DNA of 64,000 bases. Source: an uncultured Candidatus Saccharibacteria bacterium (lineage in GTDB: Bacteria > Patescibacteriota > Minisyncoccia > Phycocordibacterales > PALSA-1337). A model generated the notes under the pieces. The model had not been told where the DNA came from and did not search any database. It saw only the letters and a program-made list of their open reading frames with translations. The position numbers and the translations under genes are program-made. Positions 28,609 through 30,879 of the stretch are shown one piece after another (positions within the stretch are counted from its first letter, which is position 1; every line of letters begins with the position of its first letter). The DNA lies in contig CAZIVT010000002.1 in NCBI GenBank assembly GCA_964543075.1, forward strand, positions 3,089 through 67,088, in the 5' to 3' direction.

Positions 28609-30879
28609 ATGAAGACCAGCGCGCCCAAGAGCGTCATCGAGCGTCTCGCCAAGCTCAAAGAGCTGGTCGAGCGCCATCGTCATGCCTATCATACGCTCGA
28701 CAAGCCCGAGATCAGCGACGAAGCGTACGATTCTCTCTACAAGGAGCTGGAAGAGATAGAGGCACGATATCCGGAGCTCAAGACTGCCGATAGCCCGACC
28801 CAGCGCGTCGGTGGATCGACACGCAAGGAGTTCGCCAAGGTCAGGCATGTCCACAGGCAGTGGTCTTTCGATGATGTATTTGATTTCGATGAGCTCAAGA
28901 AATGGGATGAGCGCGTGCGCAGCTTCATGGCCAAAGCCGATGTCGCCGACGAGCCGCTCCGCTACTGTTGTGAGCTCAAGATCGACGGTCTCAAAGCCGT
29001 CCTTACGTATGAGAACGGCGCGCTCGTGCGCGCGGCGACGCGCGGCGACGGGGAAGTGGGCGAAGATATCACGGCGAATGTGAAGACGATAAAAAGCGTC
29101 CCGTTGTCGCTAAAAACAATATCAATCAGTGGACATCAGGCGCTGGAAAAGATCCCTGATCAGCTCTCAAAATCCGAGGTCCAGGACATAGAACATGACA
29201 CTATGACTGTCGTCGGCGAGCTCTGGATAGCCGAGGATAGCCTCAAGCGGATCAATGAGGCGCGAGCCGCGGCGGGTGAGCCGCTCTATGCTAATACGCG
29301 CAATCTGGCGGCGGGGGCGGTGCGTCAGCTCGATCCGAGGATAACAGCGTCGAGAAAGCTCGATTCGTTCGTATACGATATAGACGAGATAAAACTCAAA
29401 ACTCAAATTTATCCCGCCTTGGCGGGACAGGCAAATTTACCCCGCCAAGGCGGGGCAAGCAAAAATCCGGACACGCAATCAGGCGAGCTGGAACTGCTCA
29501 AAGAGCTGGGGTTCAAGACGGAGCCGCATCATGAGGTCTGTCGTGACATCGGAGAGGTCCAGCGATTCTATGAAAAGTGGACCAAGAAACGCCACGATCT
29601 CCCGTATGGGCTCGACGGCATCGTCATCAAGGTCGACTCGCTCAGGATACAGCAAGCGCTCGGGTATACCGCCAAATCCCCGCGGTGGGGTGTCGCCTAC
29701 AAATTTCCCGCGGAACAGGTGACGACAGTGCTCGAGGACATCGTCTTCCAGATCGGGCGCACTGGCGTGATCACGCCGGTGGCGGTCATGAGACCAGTGC
29801 TCGTCGCCGGCTCTACCGTCTCGCGCGCCACGCTCCACAACGAAGACGAGATCAGGCGACTCGATCTGCGCATCGGAGACACAGTGATATTACAGAAATC
29901 CGGCGATGTCATACCGGACATCGTGAGCGTGGTGACTGAGCTTCGTCCGAAGGATAGCAAGCCTTTTGAGTGGCCGACGCATATCTCCGCGTGTGGTGGT
30001 GACGGACGCATCGAGCGCGTGCCCGGCGAGGCGGCGTGGCGCTGTGTGGCCAAGGATTCATTTATCCAGCAGAAGCGCAAGCTCCACTATTTCGCTTCCA
30101 AGAAGTGTTTTGATATAGACGGTCTGGGTCCCAAGAATATCGACGTGCTTTTCGATGCTGGCCTGATCTCTATGCCTGATGATATATTCACGCTCAAGAA
30201 GGGAGATATCCTGGCTCTGCCACGCTTCGCCGAGCTCTCGGCGGACAATCTGATCCGTGGGATCGATCAGGCCAAGAAAGTGACTTTGCCGAGGTTCCTG
30301 GCATCATTGTCGATACCGCAGGTGGGGGAGGAGACGGCGTATGATCTGGCACGTCACTTTCAGAAGAAATCTGACTCGTCCGCCGTAGCTCGACCGAAGG
30401 GAGGAGCGAAGGTGGAAGATCTAAAATCGAAATCCGAAACCCGAAATCCGAAATCCGAAGATCGACCTATCGACCTGATCATGTCCGCGCCCGAAGATGA
30501 GCTGCGCGCGATCTATGGAGTAGGGGATGTCGTGGCGCGATCGATATATGCGTGGTTCCGAGAGGCTGACAACAAGAAGCTGATCAGGAACCTTCTCAAA
30601 CATGTCGAACTCCAAGAAGAGCAGGTGAACGCGAATCGCAGATTCGAAGGCCTCTCGTTCGTATTCACGGGTACATTGCCGACGCTAGAGCGCGAGGAGG
30701 CGCAGGACATGGTCCGCAAGAATGGGGGAGATGTCTCGAGCTCCGTCTCCAAGAAGACGTCGTATGTGGTGGCGGGAGATGAGGCTGGATCTAAGCTGGG
30801 CAGGGCACGAGAGCTGGGGGTCAAGATGATCTCGGAAGAGGAGTTTTTGGAGATGGTGGGCGGCGATAGTCAAAAGTGA
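28609..30879 (+). CDS. ligA: NAD-dependent DNA ligase with three extra in-frame segments
   Basis: Adenylation motif CELKIDG, OB fold, Zn finger (C...C), HhH repeats and a BRCT tail ([10 protein letters not shown]...[16 protein letters not shown]). 756 aa, against roughly 670 expected. Confidence 0.95.

What the first reader, a model, noticed from the sequence alone, without database searches (positions are those of the whole stretch)
30364..30468. ligA segment 3: a word-repeat insert flanked by a 7-bp direct repeat
Between the HhH region and the BRCT domain, the protein has ...HFQ[[35 protein letters not shown]][12 protein letters not shown].... Other LigA proteins have only a short linker here.

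The core CTAAAATCGAAATCCGAAACCCGAAATCCGAAATCC (30422..30456) is a run of GAAATCC-type words. It is bracketed by GAAGATC at 30415..30421 and at 30457..30463, which looks like a target-site duplication. Insert plus one repeat copy is 42 nt, or 14 codons. The preceding GTAGCTCG / AGCGAAGG words recur upstream of tRNA-Gln (56985..57019).
Basis: partly seen in the sequence, partly recalled or inferred. Interest (0 to 1): 0.7.

Follow-up and report, generated by a model that had tools for sequence, protein, structure and literature searches.

The report
Heptamer repeat array inside DNA ligase
The extra 34 amino acids in this candidate-phyla-radiation bacterium's DNA ligase come from a short 7-base tandem repeat plus a small hairpin sitting in a tolerant surface loop; such 7-base arrays are common across this genome and its relatives, and nothing indicates a jumping element with a target-site duplication.

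Summary
The sequence is as described. LigA (28609-30879) carries an in-frame insert that most orthologues lack, containing a run of GAAATCC-type words, with GAAGATC at 30415-21 and 30457-63.

- Against the 25-aa base state, the insert is 102 nt (30364-30465, 34 aa). It lies inside the HhH domain, not between HhH and BRCT.
- The two GAAGATC copies are 42 = 6x7 nt apart. They are the in-phase edge units of a seven-unit heptamer array (30416-30464).
- 83 other (GAAATCC)n arrays from metagenomes show no flank duplication.
- The window holds 16 short-period arrays against 0.075 in shuffles. Period 7 dominates in related Paceibacteria.
- LigA orthologues carry different heptamer words at the same few loops. 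Three relatives show concerted unit turnover at this very site.
- The native Lys-Ser codons here (AAA TCN) match the array word, which suggests in-situ slippage.
- A 38-nt hairpin (30379-30416) is nested in the insert.
- AlphaFold gives pLDDT below 50 for the insert.

Verdict: a heptameric simple-sequence repeat, a known kind, here in an essential gene. A transposon-like insertion is not supported.

The parts
28609..30879 (+). ligA, NAD-dependent DNA ligase, 756 aa. Typical orthologues have about 672 aa. It carries three in-frame inserts.
   Evidence: ORF list; Pfam domains; 100% match to P0001 and 8000 LigA homologues; E. coli LigA 2OWO at E = 4e-152.
30364..30465 (+). Insert 3: 102 nt = 34 aa (K586-R619, [34 protein letters not shown]). 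It sits in the loop between the third and fourth helix-hairpin-helix motifs.
   Evidence: Alignment A1. Base state is 25 aa against 59 aa here. DNA comparison with L081 and L002. HHH_2 is split. The 2OWO alignment breaks at 533/537. pLDDT is below 50 for residues 594-617.
30364..30378 (+). Left edge AAGAAATCTGACTCG. It contains AAA TCT (Lys-Ser), probably the native codons and the seed word (GAAATCT is one mismatch from GAAATCC).
   Evidence: Base-state relatives read AAA TCG, AAG TCT, AAA TCT or AAG TCC at this position. Read directly from the sequence.
30379..30416 (+). 38-nt G+C-rich hairpin nested in the insert: TCCGCC-GTA-GCTC-N12-GAGC-GAA-GGTGGA. The outer stem is 6 bp with one G-U pair and is a degenerate form of the CCCGCC/GGCGGG stem.
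   Evidence: The MFE and centroid folds show this architecture. The pattern scan finds 3 in the window against 0.02 in shuffles. The fold energy alone is not unusual (z = -0.58).
30416..30464 (+). Heptanucleotide tandem array of seven in-phase units: AAGATCT AAAATCG AAATCCG AAACCCG AAATCCG AAATCCG AAGATCG. It encodes (D)[14 protein letters not shown](R).
   Evidence: TRF 30424-30459, period 7, 5.3 copies; mismatch search; direct reading.
30415..30421 (+). Left GAAGATC copy. It is the edge unit of the array and overlaps the 3' arm of the hairpin by 2 nt.
30457..30463 (+). Right GAAGATC copy. It is the last array unit and overlaps the first copy of an 8-nt tandem duplication.
30461..30476 (+). 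8-nt tandem duplication (ATCGACCT)x2 at the right boundary. The second copy encodes the native I-D-L.
   Evidence: TRF row 30461-30476, period 8, 2.0 copies, 100%.
29391..29469 (+). LigA insert 2: (AAAACTC)x2, then two 28-nt hairpin units AAATTTAYCCCGCCnnGGCGGGRCARGC, then AAAAATCCGG.
   Evidence: TRF; fold z = -5.1; a 95%-identical 40-nt copy at 34740-34779; pLDDT below 50 at residues 266-284.
29116..29196 (+). LigA insert 1 (approximate limits). It holds decayed heptamer words, including AAAATCCGAGGTCC and AGGACATAGAACAT.
   Evidence: Alignment A1; sequence; word hits; pLDDT below 50 at residues 173-193.
31805..31880 (+). GatA insert 1: two 21-nt hairpin units (CCCCGCC-n3-GGCGGGGTTGA) followed by an (TTGAAAGA)x4 array.
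   Evidence: TRF; fold z = -4.4; gaps against Aquifex GatA 3H0L.
32426..32492 (+). GatA insert 2: a CCCGCC...GGCGGG hairpin with the same stem/internal-loop layout, followed by (CAATTCC)x4.
   Evidence: TRF; fold; 13-aa gap against 3H0L.
55157..55193 (+). CTP synthase (pyrG) insert: (AAAACTC)x4.6 ending in AAAAATCCGG. It encodes QNSKLKSQK.
   Evidence: TRF; Pfam; 9-aa gap against CTP synthase 4ZDI.
56978..57020 (+). Intergenic hairpin upstream of tRNA-Gln: TGCACTGC-GTA-GCTC-N13-GAGC-GAA-GCAGTGCG. Its architecture and inner sequence match the insert-3 hairpin.
   Evidence: Fold; pattern scan; tRNA-Gln at 57176-57247; related copy at L003 15343-15383 abutting a tRNA.
34740..34783 (+). Intergenic copy of the insert-2 hairpin unit, just after tRNA-Thr and embedded in A-rich heptamer-like words.
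   Evidence: BLAST 95% over 40 nt, E = 3e-13; sequence; tRNAs.

Best explanation
The finding is a heptanucleotide simple-sequence repeat: an (AAATCCG)-type array of seven in-phase units, four of them near-consensus. It sits with a nested 38-nt hairpin inside a 102-nt in-frame insertion, in the loop between the third and fourth helix-hairpin-helix motifs of LigA.

Proposed mechanism.
1. Inferred: short-unit tandem duplication (replication slippage) acted on the native Lys-Ser codons AAA TCN at this site and produced a heptamer array. The same process fills this genome's intergenic spacers with 28-35-nt arrays.
2. Shown for relatives: arrays at this site turn over by concerted unit replacement.
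3. Inferred: the older AAGATCN variants remained at both edges. These are the apparent flanking direct repeat.
4. Inferred: a small G+C-rich hairpin of a dispersed family became nested in the array.
5. Shown: only versions that keep the frame and avoid stop codons survive, and only in permissive sites. The word is stop-free in all three frames. The encoded K/S/E/R/N/P-rich peptide is predicted to be disordered. The same few loops of LigA carry unrelated heptamer words in other lineages.

The insert most likely has no dedicated function. It is a tolerated surface loop and a mutational liability: gain or loss of one unit truncates LigA before the fourth HhH motif and the BRCT domain.
For: - The array and its phase were read directly and found by TRF.
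- Arrays of period 6-9 number 16 in the window against 0.075 in shuffles.
- Period 7 accounts for 111 of 220 arrays in 1.4 Mb of related Paceibacteria DNA, with a heavy tail at 3.5-4.5 copies seen only for period 7.
- There are 75 intergenic against 42 genic arrays, although genes take up most of the sequence.
- Genic words are stop-free in all three sense frames in 76% of cases against 33% for intergenic words.
- In GatA, the one unit that would read TGA in frame is altered.
- 12 of 73 LigA genes carry arrays, clustered at a few positions. Four different words (AAATCCG, AAAGTCG, AATTTCC, AATTTCA) occur at this same site.
- The orthologous 51-nt arrays in L003, L202 and L203 have the same length and phase, but their units have changed in concert: AAGTCRM, AAGTTAC, AAGTTGA.
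- Base-state relatives read AAA TCG, AAG TCT, AAA TCT or AAG TCC exactly here.
- An 8-nt tandem duplication lies at the right boundary.
- There is no flank duplication in 83 (GAAATCC)n arrays.
- pLDDT is below 50 for all three LigA inserts.
- A change of one unit gives stops at residue 621 or 633.
- Literature: heptameric SSRs are over-represented in bacteria. Xanthomonas arrays mostly have four units, are intergenic and often form inverted pairs, and a polymerase-footprint slippage hypothesis has been proposed (PMC4692102).
Against: - No close strain variant exists in the databases; the P0001 cluster has one member on one contig. No empty site or unit-number polymorphism could therefore be observed, and slippage is inferred, not seen.
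- Single-unit steps would frameshift an essential gene. Growth must have gone in in-frame jumps or as a block, which in-situ slippage does not explain easily.
- The two edge units resemble each other (AAGATC) more than the core. The layered-array account of this is plausible but untested.
- The same word with a narrow size mode (4 units) occurs in more than 120 metagenome contigs with G+C from 0.32 to 0.70. Ten arrays on nine contigs share a GAAAC/GAAAG-type 3' continuation. That hints at something more specific than random local slippage.
- The hairpin part has relatives elsewhere, so at least part of the insert may have been copied in.
Confidence: 0.65

Rival explanations
1. One reading: a 35-nt word-repeat element transposed into a pre-existing linker and duplicated a 7-bp target (GAAGATC), as a MITE-like insertion would.
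For: An exact 7-nt direct repeat flanks the core, and removing 42 nt keeps the frame. A match of that length is uncommon among arrays; 6 nt or more occurs in about 3-5%.
Against: - The spacing is 6x7 nt, in phase with the array.
- The core has no terminal inverted repeats and no other copy in the window.
- 83 arrays of the same word show no flank duplication above control.
- The left copy overlaps the hairpin stem and the right copy overlaps an 8-nt tandem duplication.
- GAAGATC is a common word.
- Variants such as CCGAGATCG occur at other array edges.
Confidence: 0.08
2. Copy-in of ready-made small repeats without a target-site duplication. In this view the insert, or at least its hairpin, was templated from another locus by recombination or template switching. 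It would resemble the very small dispersed repeats nested in heptamer arrays of Nostoc (Elhai 2008, from memory) or the in-frame palindromic elements of Rickettsia.
For: - The LigA insert-2 hairpin unit has a 95%-identical 40-nt copy, including its A-rich flanks, after tRNA-Thr.
- CCGCC-N2-5-GGCGG mini-hairpins occur 7 times against 0.29 expected, 3 of them inside LigA or GatA inserts.
- The insert-3 hairpin shares its architecture and 8+8 nt of inner sequence with 56978-57020. The outer stem differs in sequence but still pairs.
- A block insertion would avoid frameshifted intermediates.
- AAAATCCG occurs three times in the window, each time inside a genic insert.
Against: - No second copy of the insert-3 array or of the whole composite was found in the window.
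- The hairpin family rests on 3-4 members.
- The array word matches the native codons at the site.
- Orthologous arrays evolve in place.
Confidence: 0.2
3. The insert is adaptive. It could be a lysine/arginine-rich flexible loop that adds DNA contacts to the HhH domain, or an RNA or DNA signal within ligA (a pause site, an internal regulatory site or a protein-binding array).
For: - The insert peptide has 10 basic against 6 acidic residues, and it sits in the DNA-binding HhH domain.
- About 45 of 118 orthologues have some insert here.
- An intergenic array is conserved at an orthologous site in three genomes.
Against: - Insert sequences and lengths are unrelated between lineages.
- The base state lacks any insert in most orthologues.
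- The segment is predicted to be disordered.
- It has no stable RNA fold (z = -0.58).
- The same kinds of array sit in GatA and PyrG.
Confidence: 0.05

Closest known systems
Heptameric simple-sequence repeats of bacteria: Mrazek 2007 as cited in PMC4692102; Xanthomonas GGGAATC arrays; cyanobacterial STRR heptamers
   Same: The unit is 7 nt, and period 7 is over-represented against neighbouring periods. Arrays typically have about four units, are mostly intergenic and often occur as inverted pairs that form hairpins. Position is conserved between relatives while sequence and length vary (PMC4692102).
   Different: Here the words are A-rich and differ from locus to locus, rather than one G-rich word per genome. 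The host is a Patescibacteria (CPR) genome. This copy lies in frame inside an essential gene.
Small dispersed repeats (SDR) nested in heptamer arrays of Nostoc (Elhai et al. 2008; recalled from memory, paper not held)
   Same: Very small hairpin elements are embedded in tandem heptamers, are sometimes nested, and sometimes lie inside protein-coding genes. This matches LigA inserts 2 and 3 and the GatA inserts.
   Different: The phylum and the sequences differ. Mobility is not shown here, and the hairpin families rest on a handful of copies in 64 kb.
Rickettsia palindromic elements (RPE)
   Same: Repetitive DNA is inserted in frame into housekeeping genes at structurally tolerant positions (PMC10969869).
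   Different: RPEs are about 150-bp palindromic elements with conserved peptides across copies. The insert here is a 49-nt direct-repeat array plus a 38-nt hairpin, with no conserved peptide family.
Tandem repeats of Borg elements (PMC9879509)
   Same: A-rich tandem repeats occur both in intergenic DNA and in ORFs. They are flanked by partial repeats taken as seeds and create disordered protein regions.
   Different: Borg repeats in ORFs have unit lengths divisible by three and are perfect. Here the unit is 7 nt, so the peptide period is 7 aa over three units, and the units are degenerate.
Phase-variable contingency loci (SSRs in coding regions)
   Same: An SSR whose unit is not a multiple of three lies inside an ORF, so a one-unit slip shifts the frame.
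   Different: The gene is an essential housekeeping gene and the array lies far from the 5' end. The units are degenerate, which lowers slippage. A frameshift would remove required domains rather than switch a dispensable surface function.

Membership tests
Heptameric simple-sequence repeat (STRR-like array) | Head-to-tail copies of a 7-nt unit, three or more copies | tested here: met
   TRF period 7, 5.3 copies, 90% matches at 30424-30459; seven in-phase units at 30416-30464.
Heptameric simple-sequence repeat (STRR-like array) | Genome-wide excess of period-7 arrays over chance and over neighbouring periods | tested here: met
   16 arrays against 0.075 in shuffles. Period 7 accounts for 111 of 220 arrays, against 28, 23 and 28 for periods 6, 8 and 9.
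Heptameric simple-sequence repeat (STRR-like array) | Typical size of about four units, mostly intergenic, often in inverted pairs | tested here: met
   Modal array length is 30-34 nt; 75 arrays are intergenic and 42 genic. (GAAATCC)n has its mode at 4 units. Inverted pairs fold with z from -3.2 to -8.8. This particular copy is genic and unpaired.
Heptameric simple-sequence repeat (STRR-like array) | Unit-number or unit-sequence turnover between relatives | tested here: inconclusive
   Concerted unit change occurs at the orthologous site in L003, L202 and L203. No close variant of this genome is available.
MITE-like or transposon insertion with target-site duplication | Terminal inverted repeats at the ends of the element | tested here: not met
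   The core 30422-30456 is a direct-repeat array. No arm pairing appears in the fold.
MITE-like or transposon insertion with target-site duplication | Flanking direct duplication present at other copies of the element | tested here: not met
   For 83 (GAAATCC)n arrays, the longest shared flank word is 3.59 nt against 3.48 +/- 0.10 in re-paired controls.
MITE-like or transposon insertion with target-site duplication | Several dispersed copies of the same element in the genome | tested here: not met
   The only (GAAATCC)2-like run in the 64-kb window is this one. The rest of the genome was not available.
MITE-like or transposon insertion with target-site duplication | A cognate transposase in the genome | not tested
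   Only 10 neighbouring ORFs were scanned against Pfam, and none was a transposase. The whole genome is not held.
Rickettsia palindromic element type | A 100-150-bp palindromic element with a peptide conserved across copies | tested here: not met
   The hairpin is 38 nt and the array 49 nt. Insert peptides are unrelated between sites and lineages.
Rickettsia palindromic element type | In-frame insertion into housekeeping genes at tolerated positions | tested here: met
   LigA, GatA and PyrG inserts appear as gaps against solved homologues. The LigA inserts have low pLDDT.
Small dispersed repeats in heptamer arrays (Nostoc SDR) | A hairpin element of 21-27 nt (here 28-38 nt) embedded in tandem heptamers, in multiple copies with compensatory stem changes | tested here: inconclusive
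   Embedding is seen at 29391-29469, 34740-34783 and 30364-30465. The outer stems differ yet still pair in three copies.
Borg-type amino-acid tandem repeats | Unit length divisible by three in ORFs, with perfect copies | tested here: not met
   The unit is 7 nt and the copies are degenerate.
Phase-variation contingency locus | An SSR in a dispensable, usually surface-related gene, with reversible on/off frameshifting | tested here: not met
   The host gene is the NAD-dependent ligase. A change of one unit gives a truncation at residue 621 or 633, losing the fourth HhH motif and BRCT.

The most novel reading that the evidence does not exclude
Paceibacteria and other environmental bacteria may have a specific generator of roughly 28-35-nt heptamer arrays with nested mini-hairpins, rather than generic slippage. 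Candidates are a polymerase or primase footprint effect or an unrecognised micro-mobile system. Its products would routinely colonise surface loops of essential enzymes (LigA, GatA, PyrG, and apparently PNPase and LeuRS). The supporting hints are that (GAAATCC)4-5 recurs in more than 120 contigs spanning G+C 0.32-0.70, and that some of these arrays share the same 3' continuation.
Probability: 0.15. Interest if true: 0.65.

Novelty: new member of a known kind. Interest (0 to 1): 0.38.

Why it matters
For annotation, length differences and low-complexity loops in CPR housekeeping proteins can come from heptamer repeats and mini-hairpins. They need not be new domains, and such repeats should not be called transposon scars.

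For biology, a 7-nt repeat process that is normally confined to intergenic DNA leaks into essential genes and is filtered by reading frame, stop codons and protein structure. That gives a natural map of permissive loops in LigA, GatA and PyrG. It also raises the open question of why period 7 and about four units are preferred.

The single locus itself is ordinary.

Tried and rejected
- **Strain-level presence/absence.** The exact protein forms a cluster of one sequence on one contig and the next relative is 72% identical, so no empty-site test was possible.
- **DNA of P0052.** Its LigA peptides (NPKSRF, LNPKSEILNPK, KSEIRISKSEGNPKSR) imply GAAATCC arrays at all three hotspots. The DNA was not retrievable because the sample file was too large.
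- **Exact pattern GTAGCTC-N8-18-GAGCGAA in the 80 related loci.** No hit. A looser structural scan found one related copy in L003.
- **BLAST of the left half of the insert against the window.** Only chance-level words.
- **Rfam scan of the whole window.** Only tRNAs; no known RNA family covers the arrays or hairpins.
- **Fold energy of the insert.** Not different from shuffles, so a stable RNA element spanning the whole insert was rejected.
- **Intein or intron.** Not considered plausible: the insert is 34 aa, in frame and without motifs. Not tested further.
- **Elhai 2008 paper.** Could not be read and is cited from memory.
- **ORF-based genic/intergenic calls for high-G+C metagenome contigs.** Unreliable. 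The antisense 'genic' hits such as GFRISDFG are probably spurious ORFs.
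Full report
**1. What is in the sequence**

The region lies in a 756-aa ORF (28609-30879, + strand). This ORF is an NAD-dependent DNA ligase with Ia, adenylation, OB, HhH and BRCT domains. Its best homologues are from Patescibacteria/Paceibacteria metagenome genomes, so the window comes from a candidate-phyla-radiation bacterium.

GAAGATC is present at 30415-30421 and at 30457-30463, with an A-rich word run between the two copies. Read in steps of seven, the stretch 30416-30464 is one tandem array: AAGATCT AAAATCG AAATCCG AAACCCG AAATCCG AAATCCG AAGATCG. 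TRF reports 30424-30459 with period 7 and 5.3 copies. The two "flanking" 7-mers are 42 = 6x7 nt apart, so they are the in-phase end units of the array. The quoted core is off by one base.

**2. Extent and position of the insert**

- In 40 of 48 related loci, and as the median of 118 orthologues, 25 residues separate QVGEETA from the next GVG. The window has 59.
- Codon-level comparison with the base-state relatives L081 and L002 puts the insert at 30364-30465. That is 102 nt or 34 aa, K586-R619.
- Pfam HHH_2 is split, with its second half at residues 621-659.
- The alignment to E. coli LigA (2OWO) breaks between G533 and L537.
- BRCT starts at residue 678.

The insert is therefore inside the HhH domain, between the third and fourth HhH motifs. 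It is not between HhH and BRCT. An AlphaFold model gives pLDDT below 50 for residues 594-617, and likewise for the two other LigA inserts at 173-193 and 266-284.

**3. The array belongs to a genome-wide class**

- The window has 16 arrays of period 6-9 with at least 3.4 copies. Forty dinucleotide shuffles give 0.075 on average.
- Each locus has its own A-rich word.
- Intergenic arrays mostly come as inverted pairs of about 30 nt per arm. These fold into long hairpins with z from -3.2 to -8.8. They sit in short spacers, often just before a start codon or a -10-like box.
- In 1.4 Mb from 80 related genomes plus the window, period 7 accounts for 111 of 220 arrays. A TRF-independent count shows a tail at 3.5-4.5 copies for period 7 only.
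- Density is patchy between lineages, from 0 to 0.8 per kb.
- 75 arrays are intergenic and 42 genic, although genes take up most of the sequence.
- Genic words are stop-free in all three sense frames in 76% of cases, against 33% for intergenic words.
- In GatA, the one unit of the (TTGAAAGA) array that would read TGA in frame is AGGAAAGA instead.

This matches what is published for bacterial heptameric repeats: over-representation of period 7, mostly four units, intergenic location and inverted pairs (PMC4692102).

**4. Recurrence in LigA and other enzymes**

- 12 of 73 LigA genes carry heptamer arrays, and these cluster at a few positions.
- At the position of this finding there are four different words: AAATCCG here, AAAGTCG in L003, AATTTCC in L058 and AATTTCA in L071.
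- L003 has arrays at all three hotspots.
- In the window, GatA has two such inserts and CTP synthase has one. Each appears as a gap against solved homologues.

**5. Test of the target-site-duplication reading**

The 80 loci held for analysis span G+C from 0.32 to 0.70, and their arrays have a mode of four units.

For 83 arrays with both flanks available, the longest word shared by the two 14-nt flanks averages 3.59 nt. Re-paired controls give 3.48 +/- 0.10. Matches of 6 nt or more occur in 4 of 83 arrays, against 2 of 83 in one control.

Further points against a transposed element:
- The core has no terminal inverted repeats and no other copy in the window.
- GAAGATC is a common word, with 26 copies against 19.5 expected.
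- The left copy overlaps a hairpin stem and the right copy overlaps an 8-nt tandem duplication, (ATCGACCT)x2 at 30461-30476.

The class therefore shows no signature of transposition. The match seen here is within what in-phase edge units give.

**6. Evidence for local origin and turnover**

Base-state relatives read AAA TCG (L002), AAG TCT (L081), AAA TCT (L043) or AAG TCC (L009) for the native Lys-Ser at exactly this site. The left edge of the window's insert reads AAA TCT GA and its array unit is AAATCCG. The L003 group has AAGTC-type units.

L003, L202 and L203 all carry a 51-nt insert in the same phase. Their units have changed in concert (AAGTCRM, AAGTTAC, AAGTTGA), while the right edge AAAATCGCARGA is kept. 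This is the behaviour of a tandem array evolving in place. It offers an explanation for older unit variants surviving at both edges of a homogenised core. That last step is inference.

**7. The other half of the insert**

Positions 30379-30416 fold as TCCGCC-GTA-GCTC-N12-GAGC-GAA-GGTGGA. The same stem / 3x3 internal loop / GCTC..GAGC layout occurs at four other places:
- 56978-57020, upstream of tRNA-Gln, with a different but still pairing outer stem;
- 28484-28523 on the minus strand;
- in looser form, in GatA insert 2;
- L003 15343-15383, directly abutting a tRNA.

The strict pattern occurs 3 times in the window against 0.02 in shuffles.

A second family also populates both intergenic DNA and the LigA/GatA inserts. 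CCGCC-N2-5-GGCGG mini-hairpins occur 7 times against 0.29 expected. The LigA insert-2 unit has a 95% copy after tRNA-Thr. The insert is thus a composite, reminiscent of small hairpins nested in heptamer arrays in Nostoc (from memory) and of in-frame palindromic elements in Rickettsia (PMC10969869).

**8. Consequences**

The array encodes [12 protein letters not shown]. This is the three-frame reading of the word (KSEIRNP), polar and predicted to be disordered. Loss or gain of one unit truncates LigA at residue 621 or 633, whereas loss of three units keeps the frame.

The array is therefore not a phase-variation switch but a tolerated liability. The degeneracy of its units should damp slippage. 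No known RNA family matches, and the segment has no unusual fold.

**9. Limits**

- No close strain variant exists in the searched collections. Slippage, layering and nesting are therefore inferred.
- Single-unit growth inside an essential gene is awkward for the slippage model. Block insertion or in-frame jumps must be assumed.
- The narrow size mode, and the recurrence of the same word with a shared GAAAC/GAAAG-type 3' continuation in nine very different contigs, are not explained by simple slippage.

**10. Verdict**

It is an insert made of word repeats, but it is not a target-site-duplication-bearing mobile insertion, and it is not located between HhH and BRCT.

It is a new member of a known kind, the heptameric simple-sequence repeats. 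It is notable mainly because it shows that class colonising permissive loops of essential enzymes in a CPR genome.

Noticed in passing
window 14839-14920, 18526-18612, 33180-33249, 33890-33981, 35735-35810, 36511-36598: Intergenic spacers hold inverted pairs of 7-9-nt word arrays (about 30 nt per arm) that fold into long hairpins (z from -3.2 to -8.8). Several end a few bases before a start codon or a TATAAT-like box. Their role (terminator, RNA stability or operator) is unknown.
   Followed up: partly
window 35789-35810; L003 16412-16447; L039 17308-17337: An (AATTAGGTC)n array directly upstream of TTGTATAAT...ATGATCTATTACG, the start of ftsE after prfB, is kept at the orthologous site in three genomes whose LigA proteins are only 64-68% identical. 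This suggests selection on that array.
   Followed up: partly
window 56978-57020; 28484-28523 (-); L003 15343-15383: A small hairpin family has a 7-8-bp outer stem, then GTA/GAA, then a GCTC...GAGC inner stem. This layout resembles a tRNA acceptor stem plus D arm. The L003 copy abuts a tRNA gene, and the window copy lies about 155 nt upstream of tRNA-Gln.
   Followed up: partly
window 12008-12050, 19846-19860, 29414-29453, 31832-31844, 34758-34769: CCGCC-N2-5-GGCGG mini-hairpins occur 7 times against 0.29 expected. They lie after tRNA genes and inside the LigA and GatA inserts. One lies inside the type IV pilus ATPase gene and was not examined.
   Followed up: partly
window 31577-31611 and 33890-33981: The same word (TACGAATA) forms arrays in the gatC-gatA spacer and, 2.3 kb away, as an inverted pair after the gene downstream of gatA. 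The two sets bracket gatA and one small ORF.
   Followed up: no
window 31847-31880: In the GatA 8-mer array, the single unit that would place TGA in the reading frame is changed from TTGAAAGA to AGGAAAGA. This is a visible trace of selection on an array inside a gene.
   Followed up: yes
L155 (about 6184-6218, -), L159 (914-941), L089 (6821-6848, -): (GAAATCC)4-5 arrays appear in frame as PKSEIRNP-type peptides in what look like PNPase, leucyl-tRNA synthetase and GatA of unrelated metagenome contigs. In GatA the array sits at the same spot as the window's (CAATTCC)4. The protein identities were judged by eye from flanking motifs only.
   Followed up: partly
L109, L119, L123, L125, L138, L143, L144, L158, L160: Ten (GAAATCC)n arrays on nine contigs with G+C from 0.32 to 0.68 continue with GAAAC/GAAAG-type words, mostly GAAACAAAT. 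In L109 two arrays form the ends of a hairpin with arms of about 60 bp, and the arms also contain the AAAACTC word seen in this window.
   Followed up: partly
window 44824-44846 and 45961-45983 (also 44971/46108 and 45031/46168): Identical 12-mers and 8-mers recur 1137 nt apart inside the 1276-aa ORF 44332-48162. This indicates an internal duplicated domain in that large protein.
   Followed up: no
P0007 and P0009 (LigA orthologues), hotspot 1: Their inserts read IPAKAGIQ...SGLRRNDK and TPAKAGVQ...RLRGDD. These peptides look like translations of a different G+C-rich palindromic repeat, so other repeat types also use the same LigA loop.
   Followed up: no
window 18618-28558 and the contig of P0052: ligA-gatC-gatA lies directly downstream of a type IV pilus cluster (ATPase, platform protein, several prepilins, prepilin peptidase). 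The same gene order is seen in a relative with 63% LigA identity.
   Followed up: no
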